Source: Nannocystaceae bacterium
Lineage (GTDB): Bacteria > Myxococcota_A > Polyangia > Nannocystales > Nannocystaceae
Direction of reading: 5' to 3'
Length of the DNA: 64,000 nt
Assembly: GCA_041389865.1 (NCBI GenBank)
Contig: JAWKRA010000004.1
Span: 50,307 to 114,306, forward strand
In this document: positions 1,990 to 5,800 of the stretch, piece after piece
How positions within the stretch are numbered: position 1 is the stretch's first letter
How the letters are laid out: each line of letters starts with the position of its first letter
The notes under the pieces: model-generated
What the model was told of the DNA's origin: nothing
The model's input: the letters and a program-made list of their open reading frames with translations, nothing else
Database searches by the model: none
Translations under genes and position numbers: made by a program

Positions 1990-3249
1990 CTACTTCTTAG
2001 GTAGCCTACAGTGAGCACGACCCCGCGCGCACCGACCGGGTGGCGCCGCAGACGTCGACTGTGCTGCGACGATGCTCTCCCCCATCGACTCGACGGCATC
2101 CCGAAGCACACGATCCGACAAGTGCGCGTAGCGAGCCGTCATCCGCGTCGAGGAATGCCCGAGAATCTTGGCCACGACCTCCAGCGACACCCCGGCCATC
2201 AGCGCGTCGCTGGCCGCCGAGTGGCGGAGGTCGTGCAGGCGAACGTCATGGAGCCGCGCGAGATCGCGGATTCCATACCACGTCCTCGTGAGCGCCGCGC
2301 CGTGCATGGGTTGCCCCGTCTGCGTGTGGATAACCCAGGGGACATCTGTATGCCGACGGCTTCGTAGATCTTCAAGCAGCGCGATCGCGTGCGACGACAC
2401 GGGGACGACGCGTTGCCCCGTCTTGGAATCGGGGAGCCGCAGGCAGCGGTGACGCGCGTCGACCATCGACCACTGCAACGAGAGCACCTCGTTGCGGCGC
2501 ATCCCGGTCAGCGCCAGGAGCCGGATCGCTGCGACAGAGTTCCAGCCGAACGAACCCCTGTGACCCGGGGGGGCGGTTTCCGCTTCCCGCAGCACGCGCT
2601 CAAGTCGGGCGCGCTCCTCGGGGGTCAGGAAGCGCTCACGGCTGCGCTCGCGGTAGAAGCGAACAGTTCGGGTCGGGCGCGGATGATCCCTTGGCAGGAC
2701 CTGCCAGTCGATCGCCTTCGTGTACATGTGCGAGAGGACGCGGATCATGTTGTTGGCGGTGACGGCCTTCGTCGACATCGTTGCGTGAAGCCGCTCGACA
2801 TCGACAGGAGTGATCTGATCGAGCGGCAAACCGCCAAGCGTGGGCAGGAGGTGCGCGCGGAGCTGGTAGCGGTAGCGGTCGGCGGTCGATGGCTTGACGC
2901 CGTGGCTGATGTGGTCGCGGTCGTACCGCTCGGCGAACTCGGCGAACGTGGGTACGGCTTTCGCTCGATGAGCCTCGCGAGGGAGCTCGAGCGGCGGCGC
3001 TGCGGGTGTCACGAGGACTCCCTCGAGGATCTCCATCGCCTTCGCTCGCGCCTGGCTGCAGGTCATCCGTTCGGCCGAGCCGATGCGCACCCGGACATCG
3101 CGGCCGTTTGGTCGATGGCGAGCGATGTAGATCTTGCGACCGCTCGGGAGCACCCGGAGGACGAACCCACGGACGGCGTCGCAGGTGATCTCGTACTTGC
3201 TGACGCGCGGTCGTGCTCGCTTGACGGTGATGTCGTTGAGGACAGGCAT
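1990..3249 (-). CDS. int: Tyrosine recombinase / phage-type integrase
   Basis: C-terminal catalytic domain carries the R, H-x-x-R, H and Y motifs (RRNEVLSLQW, HDLRHSAASD, LGHSSTRMTARYAH). The start is the ATG MPVLNDITVKRARP, consistent with the N-terminal arm-binding region. Confidence 0.9.
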   Translation of the reverse strand: MPVLNDITVKRARPRVSKYEITCDAVRGFVLRVLPSGRKIYIARHRPNGRDVRVRIGSAERMTCSQARAKAMEILEGVLVTPAAPPLELPREAHRAKAVPTFAEFAERYDRDHISHGVKPSTADRYRYQLRAHLLPTLGGLPLDQITPVDVERLHATMSTKAVTANNMIRVLSHMYTKAIDWQVLPRDHPRPTRTVRFYRERSRERFLTPEERARLERVLREAETAPPGHRGSFGWNSVAAIRLLALTGMRRNEVLSLQWSMVDARHRCLRLPDSKTGQRVVPVSSHAIALLEDLRSRRHTDVPWVIHTQTGQPMHGAALTRTWYGIRDLARLHDVRLHDLRHSAASDALMAGVSLEVVAKILGHSSTRMTARYAHLSDRVLRDAVESMGESIVAAQSTSAAPPGRCARGRAHCRLPKK

Positions 3250-3298
3250 GGCTCGATTCCGATCGATCCGTATTCGATCCAAACCGGCGCCACAATGA

Positions 3299-5800
3299 CA
3301 TGTCTCAAGAGACACAATGTCGAGAATTTTCAGGAATTTGACCGATTTTGCGCGTGACTTCCGAACCGACAACGTGATGATCGGCGACGACGGGCGCGTG
3401 CGCGTGATGGACTTCGGGCTGGCGCGAAGCCCCGGCGAGCTGAGCACGGCCGGCGACGTGACGCTCGAGAGCGACGGCCCGCCGAGCTCGAGCGCGGAGA
3501 GCACGGACACGCGACTGCTGAGCCAACCCCTGACCCGCACCGGCACGCTGCTCGGGACCCCCGCGTACATGTCGCCCGAGCAGTGCGCAGGGCGGCCCAC
3601 CGACGCTCGCAGCGATCAATTCAGCTTCTGCGTGAGCCTGTTCGAGGCGCTCTACAAGCAGCGCCCGTTCCCGTGCACGTCGATCGCCGAGCGCCTGCAC
3701 GCGATCGAGACGGGCACGGTCGCCGCGGTGACGCACGCCGGGGTGCCGAGCCGGCTGCATCGCGCGCTGCTCCGCGGCCTCGCGCGCGCTCCCGAAGATC
3801 GCTGGCCGTCGATGGACGCGCTGCTCGCCGCGCTCAGCGACGAGCCGGAGAAGCGCTGGCGACGGCGAGCCGCCGGCGCGCTGGCGACGGCGGTCGTCGG
3901 GGGCGGCGCGCTCACGCTCGCGCTCACGCTGAGCAGCGCCGCCGGGCAGGTCTGCGCGGGGATGGAGAAGCACGTCCAGGAGGTGTGGGGCCCCGACCAG
4001 CGCGCCGAGGTCCGCGCGGCGATCGAGCGCACTGGGCTCAGCTACGCGGCGGAGACGTGGTCGCGGATCGAGGGCGGCCTCGACGACTACACCGAGCGCT
4101 GGGTCGCGGCCCGCGTCGACGCCTGCGAGGCGACCCACAGCGGCGAGCAGTCCGAGCGGCTCCTCGATCTGCGGATGACCTGTCTCGATGAACACCTCGG
4201 TCAAGTCCAGGCCACGGTGCAGCTGCTGCGCGAGGCGGACGCGGACGCGGTCGAGCACGCGGCCGACGCCCTCGCCAAGCTGCCGGCGCTCGATCGCTGC
4301 GCCGACGCGGCGGCGCTCTCCGCCGAGGTCCCGCCGCCCGCAGACCCCGAGGTCGCACGGCGCGTCGCGGAGCTCACCAGCATGTTCGTCGACGCCGAGG
4401 TGCTCGCGCGCGTGACGAAGTACAGCGAGGCCCTCGAGCTCGTCGGGGCGGTGGCGAGCGAGGCGAGCGCGCTTGACTACGCGCCGCTCGAGCTCCGCGC
4501 GCGGCTGCTCGAGGGGGAGCTCCAGCGCCAGACAGGCGAGCACGCGCTGGCCGAGGCGACGTTCGAGCGCGCCTACGACGGCGCGCTGCGTCGCGGGATG
4601 ATCCCCGAGGCCGCCCGCGCAGCGATCGAGATCACCGTGCTCCTCGGCACCAACCTCGCGCGCCCCGAGGACAGCGCGGGCTGGGCCAGACACGCCGAGC
4701 TGCTGAGCGAGGCTGACGGGCGGGAGGTCGCCCAATCCCGCTTCCTCCGCTACCGCGGGCTCGTGAGCACCGCGCAGGGTGACTACGCTGCAGCCTACGC
4801 GGACTACGAGCGCGCGCTTGCGATGAGCGAGCGTATGTACGGGCCCGATCACCCCGCGGTCGCGACCGCGTTGAACAACCTCGGGAACGCGTGCCAGAAG
4901 CTGGGGCGCTTCGACGAGGCGCTCGGCTACAACGAGCGCGCGCTGGTCATCGACGAGCGCACCCACGGCCCGGGTCACCCGTTCACCGCGACGTCCTTGT
5001 TCAACCTGGGCACCGTGGCCAAGGCCAAGGGCGATCTCGACGCGGCCGCGCGCTTCCACGAGCGCGCGCTGGCGATCCGCGAGCGCGCCCTCGGACCCGA
5101 GCACCCCGACGTCGGCGGATCGCACAACAGCCTCGGCTCGATCGCCAAGCGCCGCGGCGATCTCGACGCGGCCCAACAGCACTACCTGCGCGCGCTGAGC
5201 ATCTTCGAATCGCACTTCGGCGGCGATCACCCCTACGTCGCGGGCGCGCTGACCAACCTCGGCTCCGCGGCCCGGAAGCTGGGGAATCTCGAGCAGGCCC
5301 GCGCGTACCTCGAGCGCGCGCTCGAGATCTCCGAGCGTCGCCTCGGTCCCGATCACCCCAACCTGGGCATCACGCTGTCGAGCCTCGGCGAGCTCGCGCT
5401 CGCGGAGGGCGACTACCCACGCGCCCGCGCGCGCTTCGAGCAGACGCTCGCGCTGTTTGAGCGCTCGCTGGGTCCCGAGCACGCTGCGGTGGCGGACACC
5501 GCGACGAACCTCGGCGTGGCGCTCCTGCACCTCGGCGACCCGAGCGCGGCGCTCGTGCACCTCGAGCGGGCCATGGAGATTCGGGCCAAGACCGAGTCAG
5601 CGCCCGACGCCGCGGCGGAGACCCAGTTTCGCCTGGCGCAAGCGCTGTGGGACGCGCGGCCGACCGGCGCCGATCGTCGACGCGCGCTCGAGCTCGCGGA
5701 GAAGGCCGACGCCGACGCCGTCGCCAGCGGCGTCAAGGATGAGCTGCGGGCGGAGATCGAGGCGTGGCGCGCCGCGAGGTCGACCACGCGCGATCGCTGA
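3299..5800 (+). pseudogene. 5'-truncated Ser/Thr protein kinase fused to a TM segment and TPR_12-type repeats
   Basis: Frame opens at 3299 directly after a stop. The first residues are kinase subdomain VIb onward ([34 protein letters not shown]), with no Gly-loop, Lys or Glu N-lobe. A TM stretch and repeated TPR units follow (NLGN..G..D.A....RAL.I.E...GP.HP). The gene abuts the integrase start. Confidence 0.55.

What the first reader, a model, noticed from the sequence alone, without database searches (positions are those of the whole stretch)
1990..3360. Integrase abutting a 5'-truncated Ser/Thr kinase, with a perfect palindrome and direct repeats at the junction
The kinase frame opens immediately after a stop at 3296–3298 and begins in kinase subdomain VIb. 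The ATP-binding N-lobe is therefore absent. The integrase start codon is 50 bp away. Between them lies TGTCTCAAGAGACA (3301–3314), a perfect 6-2-6 palindrome flanked by the direct repeat CACAATG (3290 and 3312). The segment also has low GC. This suggests the integrase-bearing element inserted into, or recombined at, a kinase gene. That target is unusual. The integrase-proximal att core would then lie here.
Basis: partly seen in the sequence, partly recalled or inferred. Interest (0 to 1): 0.65.

Follow-up and report, generated by a model that had tools for sequence, protein, structure and literature searches.

The report
Integrase element inserted in kinase gene

Summary
An intact P4-type tyrosine integrase (1993-3249, minus strand) lies 50 nt from a kinase-TPR reading frame. 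That frame lacks Pkinase profile positions 1-121. The palindrome, the repeats and the low GC are all present.

The kinase was cut by site-specific insertion, but not at the palindrome. The TGTY-N6-RACA dyad recurs upstream of nine of ten related integrase genes, whatever lies beyond them. It is therefore an element-internal, operator-like site.

Several lines place the real junction at 3353-3372:
- Homology between the arms of paralogous elements stops at 3353.
- GC3 jumps from 0.50-0.60 to 0.98 at about 3367.
- The codons RDFRT replace HRDFKP, which is otherwise invariant.
- A contig from a 99.8%-identical MAG starts at exactly 3366.
- A related element is seen in both circular and integrated form, and its identity boundary aligns with window 3372/3373.

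Together these bracket CCGACAA (3366-3372) as the likely crossover.

Four of nine related elements abut kinase-derived sequence, at two conserved motifs (subdomains VIb and IV). The other junction lies outside the window.

This is a new member of a known kind: a gene-disrupting integrative element. Its unusual feature is the choice of target.

The parts
1993..3249 (-). Tyrosine integrase CDS, 419 aa (stop codon 1990-1992). P4/DUF4102-type with an N-terminal arm-binding domain.
   Evidence: Pfam domains PF13356, PF14659 and PF00589. phrog_1 integrase, E = 9.5e-74. The catalytic R, K, HxxR, H and Y residues are invariant in the alignment with six relatives. GC3 is 0.80.
3253..3280 (.). Three direct TCGAT(T)CC repeats at 3253, 3263 and 3274 (10-11 nt spacing) between the -10-like hexamer and the integrase ATG. 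Candidate arm-type integrase-binding sites.
   Evidence: Read directly. Pairs of GGATCGA repeats occur at the same place in L005, L007 and L014. The function is inferred.
3291..3297 (-). CACAATG (reverse complement CATTGTG).
   Evidence: Relatives carry TATTGT, TATAAT, TATCTT or TAAATT 2-5 nt after the dyad. The consensus promoter scan found no canonical sigma-70 site, so the promoter role is inferred.
3301..3314 (.). Palindrome TGTCTCAAGAGACA. A conserved dyad upstream of the integrase gene, probably an operator or regulatory protein-binding site. It is internal to the element.
   Evidence: TGTY-N6-RACA is present in nine of ten integrase upstream regions, and L014 has it with one mismatch. 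The inner bases change while the dyad symmetry is kept. A 2-nt loop cannot form a hairpin, which points to a protein-binding site.
3313..3319 (.). Second CACAATG copy. It overlaps the right half of the palindrome and the in-frame ATG at 3317.
   Evidence: Only partly conserved in relatives, as ATT(A/G)TG.
3324..3353 (.). Conserved P-arm block GAATTTTCAGGAATTTGACCGATTTTGCGC. This is the last stretch shared with paralogous elements.
   Evidence: blastn homology between the window and L005 runs from the integrase gene through the arm and stops at window 3353 / L005 8173. The same block occurs in L007.
3354..3365 (+). GTGACTTCCGAA. Element-derived imitation of the kinase catalytic-loop codons; it reads (R)DFR(T) where kinases have (R)DFK(P).
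   Evidence: KP was found in 75 of 75 family homologues. RT was found in none of the best 149 representatives, even though the query itself carried RT. L006 carries the same segment, RDLRTENV. It uses the minor Arg codons CGT and CGA, and GC3 is 0.60. The homologous segment is part of the element in both the circular and the integrated copies of the P0129 element.
3366..3372 (+). CCGACAA. Candidate 7-nt overlap (crossover) region of the att site.
   Evidence: Left edge: the contig of the 99.8%-identical MAG starts at 3366. That is the first base shared with a natural ...TTCAAGCCCGACAAC loop, such as the one in the L005 kinase. Right edge: the identity boundary between circular L010 and integrated L011/L012 aligns with window 3372/3373. 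This is an inference from two different elements.
3373..5800 (+). Host-derived 3' part of a Hanks-type Ser/Thr kinase-TPR gene, from subdomain VIb/VII through the C-lobe, one predicted membrane-spanning stretch and TPR repeats. The annotated protein MEZ4426212.1 is 820 aa, which by length arithmetic points to the TTG at 3338 inside the element arm as its start (inferred, not read from the record).
   Evidence: Pfam Pkinase 122-207/263 plus TPR_12 and TPR_10. 56% identity to the full-length P0004, 972 aa. GC3 is 0.92-0.98. Cluster member P0391.
495..1733 (+). Element cargo: an ORFan of 412 aa (MEZ4426210.1, R3A51_00810), convergent with the integrase gene.
   Evidence: Its only hit among 5.8 billion proteins is itself. 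No Pfam, NCBIfam or PHROG match. GC3 is 0.81.
49..155 (+). Five direct copies of ATTGACCTTTCGGACAA (21/24-nt spacing) in AT-rich DNA at the window edge. They lie inside the foreign segment; their role is unknown (iteron- or operator-like).
   Evidence: five matches against 0.52 expected.

Best explanation
Window 1-3365 is the right-hand end of an integrative genetic element whose left end lies beyond the window.

Its P4-type tyrosine integrase recombined an attP site with the catalytic-loop coding DNA (subdomain VIb, HRDFKPDN) of a chromosomal Hanks-type kinase-TPR gene. What we see is the integrase-proximal junction.

The kinase N-lobe (glycine-rich loop, catalytic Lys, helix C, and His of HRD) should sit at the far junction. 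The gene is disrupted and not restored.

Shown: the truncation, the compositional break, the limit of arm homology, the conservation of the dyad, and the re-use of kinase motifs by relatives. Inferred: the exact crossover, the operator role of the dyad, the arm-site role of the repeats, and current mobility.
For: 1. Truncation. The Pkinase profile starts at position 122. Homologues are 950-1020 aa and have N-lobes. No matching N-lobe lies in the 64 kb.

2. Foreign segment. GC is about 0.65 and GC3 0.80 left of the junction, against 0.73 and 0.92 to the right. In the kinase frame, GC3 is 0.50 for 3299-3352, 0.60 for 3353-3367 and 0.98 for 3368-3499.

3. Boundary. DNA homology with the paralogous element L005 covers the integrase gene and the arm and ends at 3353. 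In L005 a different kinase follows, cut at Pkinase profile position 56.

4. RDFRT is not kinase sequence. The loop was KP in 75 of 75 family homologues. RT appeared in none of the best 149 representatives. The same RT segment sits next to the 77%-identical integrase in L006, followed by a decayed DFxLA remnant.

5. Contig start. The contig L003 of MAG GCA_020431275.1 is 99.8% identical to the window and starts at 3366. That is exactly where the occupied sequence and a natural TTCAAGCCCGACAAC loop become identical.

6. Model element. The P0129 integrase is 52% identical. It occurs as a perfect 8530-nt circle or tandem (L010, L013) and integrated in a beta-helix gene in two other samples (L011, L012). 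The two forms diverge 125 nt upstream of the integrase ATG, at the position homologous to window 3372/3373.

7. Integrase. It is intact.

8. Ruled out. There is no tRNA, tmRNA or Rfam feature at the junction.

9. Kinase association. Kinase-derived sequence lies directly at the junction in four of nine related elements (window, L005, L006, L014). In kinase-rich myxobacteria about one gene in 30 is a kinase, so my binomial estimate is about 1.6e-4.
Against: - The second junction, and therefore the direct repeat that would prove site-specific insertion, was not seen.
- No empty-site allele was recovered. The natural HRDFKP sequence of this particular gene is assumed from paralogues.
- The 7-nt overlap is pieced together from two different elements.
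- The contig end at 3366 could be accidental in a fragmented MAG. My estimate of that is about 1%.
- Relatives also use other targets (EamA fragment, beta-helix gene, intergenic DNA), so kinase targeting is not a property of the whole clade.
- No canonical sigma-70 promoter was found around the dyad.
- The element may be a decayed remnant rather than an active one.
Confidence: 0.78

Rival explanations
1. Long-core variant. The element inserted here, but RDFRTDNV is the native sequence of an unusual kinase. Under this reading attP and attB share a long identical core (about 3354-3378), so the crossover cannot be narrowed to 3366-3372.
For: Many integrative elements share 15-50 nt of identity with their target (general knowledge). 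In the P0129 element, identity between the circular and integrated forms also extends about 25 nt past the arm end, and that could be a shared core. The window and L006 both read RD(F/L)RT(D/E)NV.
Against: RT was absent from 75 family homologues and from the best 149 representatives. The segment uses rare Arg codons and has low GC3 inside a gene with GC3 of 0.92. The near-identical MAG contig starts at 3366, not 3354. L007, an AT-rich attP-like flank, carries a looser loop imitation (EPDNFIG followed by a stop), which shows that such imitations do reside in elements.
Confidence: 0.12
2. One reading: the palindrome TGTCTCAAGAGACA, flanked by CACAATG, is the att core or crossover site.
For: It lies between the two genes in low-GC DNA. 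Dyad symmetry is typical of recombinase core sites.
Against: The dyad is conserved upstream of the integrase gene in nine of ten relatives regardless of flank, including the unintegrated circular form. Arm homology between elements continues 39 nt past it. The spacer is 2 nt, whereas tyrosine recombinases use a 6-8 nt overlap (general knowledge). The exact palindrome occurs only once in the window.
Confidence: 0.03
3. Coincidental adjacency. The kinase lost its 5' part through an unrelated deletion or rearrangement, and the integrase merely lies next to the scar.
For: Only one junction is visible. Kinases are abundant in these genomes, at about one gene in 30.
Against: The same geometry recurs at L005, L006 and L014, with the break at a fixed distance from the conserved arm end. 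Kinase sequence starts exactly where arm homology ends. The site-specific behaviour of a relative was shown directly.
Confidence: 0.05
4. Assembly artefact. The MAG contig joins the element arm and the kinase chimerically.
For: The source is a MAG. Another MAG breaks its contig at this very point.
Against: The shared sequence at the join is 7-13 nt at most, far below assembler k-mer sizes. An independent assembly shows the same integrase-arm-kinase architecture at L005.
Confidence: 0.02

Closest known systems
Gene-disrupting integrative elements, also called 'regulated gene integrity' elements. Examples: skin in sigK, SPbeta in spsM, phi10403S in comK, and the nifD/fdxN/hupL elements. TIGER added further cases, including prkA (Mageeney et al. 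2020, PMC7192596).
   Same: An integrase-borne element sits inside the conserved domain-coding part of a host gene and does not restore it. Integrase relatives re-use the same kind of target.
   Different: No excision or regulatory role has been shown here. The target is a Hanks-type kinase catalytic loop, one member of a very large paralogous family, not a single-copy developmental gene. prkA is a different kind of kinase.
P4-type (DUF4102 arm-binding) tyrosine integrases of genomic islands and phages, which usually target the 3' ends of tRNA or tmRNA genes.
   Same: Same domain architecture and catalytic residues. The integrase gene lies at the element edge and is transcribed away from the junction. 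There are phased short repeats near the integrase start.
   Different: No tRNA is present here or in any of the five related loci scanned. Targets are inside protein-coding genes. The nearest phage integrases are at most 32% identical.
Phage 21 and e14 in icd, and similar elements that enter a coding region but carry a replacement gene end (general knowledge; the principle is stated in PMC7192596).
   Same: attP carries a short imitation of the target's coding sequence, in frame.
   Different: Here the imitation covers only about 4-10 codons and cannot replace the missing 160-residue N-lobe. The gene is inactivated as a kinase.
phiRv1 of M. tuberculosis, which lies in the repeated REP13E12 element family (PMC9317374).
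   Same: The target sequence exists in many copies per genome, so several alternative landing sites are available.
   Different: phiRv1 uses a serine recombinase and a non-coding repeat. Here a tyrosine integrase uses a conserved protein-motif coding sequence.

Membership tests
Tyrosine recombinase / phage integrase, P4-like subtype | C-terminal catalytic domain with the R-K-HxxR-H/W-Y residues | tested here: met
   PF00589, E = 1.4e-27. R251, K276, H339, R342, H365 and Y374 are invariant among seven relatives.
Tyrosine recombinase / phage integrase, P4-like subtype | N-terminal arm-type DNA-binding domain plus a SAM-like core-binding domain | tested here: met
   PF13356 at residues 4-76 and PF14659 at residues 101-155.
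Integrative genetic element (site-specific insertion) | Two junctions (attL and attR) that share a short direct repeat and flank foreign DNA | not testable with these tools
   Only the integrase-proximal junction is in the window. The core occurs once in the 64 kb. The left part of the contig could not be fetched.
Integrative genetic element (site-specific insertion) | Compositionally distinct cargo next to the integrase gene, with a sharp boundary against host DNA | tested here: met
   GC and GC3 shift. The arm homology limit is at 3353.
Integrative genetic element (site-specific insertion) | Both the integrated form and the free or empty form of the same site have been observed | tested here: inconclusive
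   Not seen for this element. It is seen for the 52%-identical P0129 element, as circular L010/L013 and integrated L011/L012. The L003 contig start at 3366 hints at site heterogeneity.
Hanks-type Ser/Thr protein kinase (functional) | Complete catalytic domain: glycine-rich loop, VAIK Lys, helix C Glu, HRD, DFG and APE | tested here: not met
   Pkinase profile positions 1-121 are absent. The loop reads ARDFRT in place of HRDFKP. DFG and the C-lobe are present.
Regulated gene integrity (RGI) element | Pfam domain disrupted without restoration by attP-borne sequence | tested here: met
   The element supplies only an 18-23 codon leader and no N-lobe.
Regulated gene integrity (RGI) element | Integrase relatives form a clade that uses the same target | tested here: inconclusive
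   The window and L006 (77% identical) use the same VIb position. L005 and L014 use subdomain IV. But L004, 74% identical to L005, abuts an EamA fragment instead.
Regulated gene integrity (RGI) element | Programmed excision restores the gene under defined conditions | not testable with these tools
   This needs experiments or read-level data.
Site-promiscuous integrases (Tn916/CTnDOT-like) | Closely related integrases found at unrelated sequences, with no attP-target similarity | tested here: not met
   The same motif position is re-used (window and L006; L005 and L014). The same beta-helix site appears in two samples (L011, L012). attP imitates the target in frame.

The most novel reading that the evidence does not exclude
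A clade of Nannocystaceae integrative elements may have attP cores that imitate the DNA coding for conserved Hanks-kinase motifs: the catalytic loop HRDxKPxN in one sub-lineage and the subdomain-IV H-x-IVRIYD-G motif in another. That would let them land in any of the hundreds of paralogous kinase genes of myxobacteria. The expanded kinome would then serve as a conserved but individually dispensable multi-copy 'safe harbour', playing the role that tRNA genes play for other islands. Excision might conceivably switch individual kinases back on.
Probability: 0.3. Interest if true: 0.6.

Novelty: new member of a known kind. Interest (0 to 1): 0.4.

Why it matters
For annotation, this explains a kinase that is recorded as a protein (MEZ4426212.1, 820 aa; the length suggests a start inside the element arm). 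It is in fact a beheaded gene fused to element DNA. It also places the att junction about 50 nt away from the eye-catching palindrome.

For mobile-element biology, it adds a target class. Tyrosine integrases disrupt conserved domains in only about 2% of mapped cases (88 of 3978; PMC7192596). Here, related integrases repeatedly sit at two conserved kinase motifs.

If the motif, rather than one particular gene, is what the integrase recognises, two things follow. It would show how an element can combine a conserved target with low fitness cost by exploiting a hugely redundant gene family. It would also offer integrases with predictable landing sites across Myxococcota, which are hard to engineer.

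Tried and rejected
- Searching for the source genome or relatives of the integrase in genome contigs gave only two distant hits. Viral contigs gave none.
- The single metagenome scan, with the conserved arm motif, returned only a chance match without an integrase (L009).
- Exact look-ups of the window's integrase and of P0241 found no contig, so the left part of the element could not be read.
- A kinase N-lobe was sought in the window. The only hit is an unrelated, complete HGD/DLG kinase with a PEGA domain at 58654-60471. It was rejected as the missing half.
- A second copy of the core or of the exact palindrome was sought in the window. There is none.
- A tRNA, tmRNA or Rfam target was sought. 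There is none.
- The 355-aa kinase downstream of the integrase in L014 was considered as a far junction. It was rejected because its domain is complete.
- Direct repeats that might mark the far end of the L004 element were sought. Only GC-rich chance matches appeared.
- The iterons at 49-155 were considered as P'-arm integrase sites. They have no similarity to the GGATCGA repeats or to the L007 flank, so the idea was set aside.
- The cargo ORFs have no family in Pfam, NCBIfam or PHROGs, and no homologue.
- A sigma-70 promoter scan of the arm found nothing.
- A literature search found no report of integrases that target Hanks-kinase genes in myxobacteria.
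Full report
**1. What is in the sequence**

The minus strand carries a 419-aa ORF at 1993-3249, with its stop at 1990-1992. It has the Arm-DNA-bind_3, Phage_int_SAM_3 and Phage_integrase domains and matches phrog_1 integrases. All catalytic residues are intact when it is aligned with six relatives.

Fifty nucleotides from its ATG, after a TGA at 3296-3298, a plus-strand frame runs to 5800. That frame matches Pkinase only over profile positions 122-207 of 263, from its 19th residue on, and is followed by TPR_12/TPR_10 repeats. 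Its homologues are 950-1020 aa, with complete N-lobes and the loop sequence VHRDFKP[DE]NV. The window instead reads [31 protein letters not shown].

The palindrome TGTCTCAAGAGACA is at 3301-3314. GC falls to 0.55 in 3201-3400.

**2. The left 3.3 kb is foreign**

GC is about 0.65 and GC3 about 0.80 for the integrase gene and the neighbouring ORF. For the kinase and the genes to its right, GC is about 0.73 and GC3 is 0.91-0.97.

The neighbouring ORF (495-1733) has no family and, among 5.8 billion proteins, matches only itself. That match is MEZ4426210.1, locus tag R3A51_00810, from a Nannocystaceae MAG contig of 120,879 nt. This identifies the source of the window.

The kinase is annotated there as an 820-aa protein, MEZ4426212.1. 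From that length I infer a start at the TTG at 3338, which lies inside element DNA.

There is no tRNA, tmRNA or Rfam feature at the junction. There is no other integrase in the window. There is no kinase N-lobe that could belong to this gene. The only other kinase, at 58654-60471, is a complete but atypical one.

**3. Where the junction is**

Five independent lines of evidence converge on 3353-3372.

(a) The closest integrases are 50-77% identical and come from Myxococcales/Nannocystaceae MAGs. DNA homology between the window and the paralogous locus L005 covers the integrase gene and the whole upstream arm. It stops at window 3353, which corresponds to L005 8173.

(b) In the kinase frame, GC3 is 0.50 for 3299-3352, 0.60 for the five codons at 3353-3367, and 0.98 for 3368-3499. 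The two Arg codons in 3353-3367 (CGT and CGA) are minor codons in this gene.

(c) The residues RT in RDFRT replace KP. KP was present in 75 of 75 family homologues with a recognisable loop. RT was never seen among the best 149 cluster representatives, although the 30-aa query itself carried RT. The same oddity, RDLRTENV, sits next to the 77%-identical integrase in L006. This stretch therefore belongs to the element and imitates the kinase loop.

(d) Contig L003 of MAG GCA_020431275.1 has three mismatches in 1729 nt against the window and begins at window 3366. A natural loop, such as the one in the L005 kinase, reads CGCGACTTCAAGCCCGACAACGT. Compared with the window's CGTGACTTCCGAACCGACAACGT, the two become identical from exactly 3366. 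This is what an assembly graph would produce if occupied and empty sites coexisted. This point is an inference.

(e) The P0129 integrase is 52% identical and serves as a model. L010 is a perfect 8530-nt repeat, either a circle or a tandem. L013 shows the same configuration in another sample. L011 and L012, from two further samples, have the element next to a 5'-cut beta-helix gene. The forms diverge 125 nt upstream of the integrase ATG. In the alignment, that point corresponds to window 3372/3373.

Taken together, (d) and (e) bracket CCGACAA (3366-3372). Seven nucleotides is the usual size of a tyrosine-recombinase overlap region (general knowledge).

**4. What the palindrome is**

A dyad TGTY-N6-RACA lies 29-75 nt upstream of the integrase ATG in nine of ten related loci, and L014 has it with one mismatch. 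It is followed within a few bases by a -10-like hexamer: TATTGT, TATAAT, TATCTT or TAAATT, and CATTGT in the window. By chance such a dyad is expected in about 1% of 150-nt stretches (my estimate).

The dyad is present whatever lies beyond the arm: kinase, beta-helix gene, EamA fragment, intergenic DNA, or the element's own other arm in the circular form. The inner positions vary while the symmetry is kept. A 2-nt spacer cannot form a hairpin loop.

The best reading is a binding site for a dimeric regulator that overlaps the integrase promoter. This is inferred, because the simple sigma-70 scan found no canonical promoter.

The integrase-proximal CACAATG copy is the -10-like element. The other copy overlaps the dyad.

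Between the -10-like hexamer and the ATG lie three TCGAT(T)CC repeats at 10-11 nt spacing. They are matched by GGATCGA pairs in L005, L007 and L014. These are candidate arm-type sites for the integrase's N-terminal domain.

**5. The family pattern**

Flanks are visible for nine related elements.

- Window and L006 (77% identical integrases): both abut the kinase catalytic loop at the same position. In L006 only about 90 nt of decayed kinase remain (RDLRTENV ... DFCLA, with a frameshift) before an unrelated convergent gene.
- L005: abuts another kinase-TPR gene, cut at Pkinase profile position 56. It reads AHIVRIYDVG (subdomain IV).
- L014: ends 39 nt past the arm, and those 39 nt read AHVVRIVDLGDVR, the same motif.
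- L007: has an AT-rich flank that reads RIHEPDNFIGR followed by a stop. It looks like an unintegrated attP whose core loosely imitates the loop.
- L004: abuts a 92-nt fragment that is 88% identical to an internal piece of the neighbouring EamA gene.
- L010-L013: use a beta-helix gene.
- L015 and L016: not obviously intragenic.

In the most kinase-rich myxobacterium about one gene in 30 is a kinase (PMC2887360). Four kinase junctions out of nine therefore has a binomial probability of about 1.6e-4 (my arithmetic).

These integrases are sequence-specific rather than promiscuous. They favour conserved coding motifs, and two sub-lineages use two different kinase motifs. In every case the target's reading frame continues into the arm (…SA|target codons). 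I note this but cannot explain it.

**6. Mechanism and comparison**

This is an integrative genetic element of the classical tyrosine-integrase kind. It has entered a domain-coding region and does not restore it.

Mageeney et al. found such domain disruption for 88 of 3978 tyrosine integrases. They divide the cases into off-target or promiscuous events and 'regulated gene integrity' (PMC7192596). Re-use of the same motif by diverged relatives argues against an accident. Nothing here shows regulated excision.

The nearest conceptual parallel for a multi-copy target is phiRv1 in the REP13E12 repeat family. That system uses a serine recombinase and a non-coding repeat.

**7. Limits**

- The far junction and an empty site were not obtained. 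All routes to the rest of the contig failed.
- The overlap assignment combines two elements.
- The roles of the dyad and the repeats are inferred.
- The element's size, type and activity are unknown.

**8. Verdict**

The kinase was indeed cut by an integrase-borne element, but the att core is at about 3354-3372, not at the palindrome. This is a new member of a known kind, with a moderately interesting target preference that deserves a systematic survey.

Noticed in passing
window 49-155: Five direct copies of ATTGACCTTTCGGACAA at alternating 24/21-nt spacing (a 45-nt super-unit). They lie in AT-rich DNA (GC 0.47) just upstream of a small ORF (202-~590) and the ORFan at 495-1733. They look like iterons or operators. 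The pattern has five matches against 0.52 expected.
   Followed up: partly
window 3231, 3301, 8734, 42096, 49074, 54580, 54660, 61262: TGTC-N6-GACA occurs eight times against 0.67 expected. One copy is in integrase codons 2-6 and is conserved in relatives as CTGTCCTCAACGACA. The copy at 54580 reads TGTCCTACCAGACATGTCA, like the integrase operator, and lies in an intergenic gap with a second site 80 nt away. This may be the motif of a host regulator.
   Followed up: partly
window 58654-60471 (-): A 606-aa kinase with HGD in place of HRD, DLG in place of DFG, almost no activation segment, and a C-terminal PEGA domain. The Pkinase profile matches only positions 1-148. It is probably a pseudokinase and is unrelated to the cut gene.
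   Followed up: partly
L010 (GCA_964496845.1 contig CAZCDR010000086.1), whole locus: A perfect 8530-nt periodicity, indicating a small circular (or tandem) integrase element. Its cargo looks like pieces of host genes: a 551-aa TPR_12/TPR_10 protein, a 182-aa sulfatase fragment overlapping it, a Lactamase_B protein and a YhhN protein.
   Followed up: partly
L004 4883-4974 and 5483-5574: A 92-nt segment next to the integrase arm is an inverted copy, 88% identical, of an internal part of the adjacent EamA transporter gene (GAVxFGGMIGPxLLLA). This suggests that this paralogous element cut an EamA-family gene.
   Followed up: partly
window 3299-3353; L005 8174-8200; L011 1327-1377; L014 40-60: In every junction examined, the target's reading frame runs on into the element arm, which ends ...(T/S)(D/E)(S/F)A. 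Annotated starts (window TTG 3338 inferred from protein length, or ATG 3317; L005 TTG) fall inside element DNA. It was not tested whether the truncated proteins are expressed.
   Followed up: no
window 495-1733: A 412-aa ORF with coding-like GC3 (0.81). Apart from its own database record, it has no homologue among 5.8 billion proteins.
   Followed up: yes
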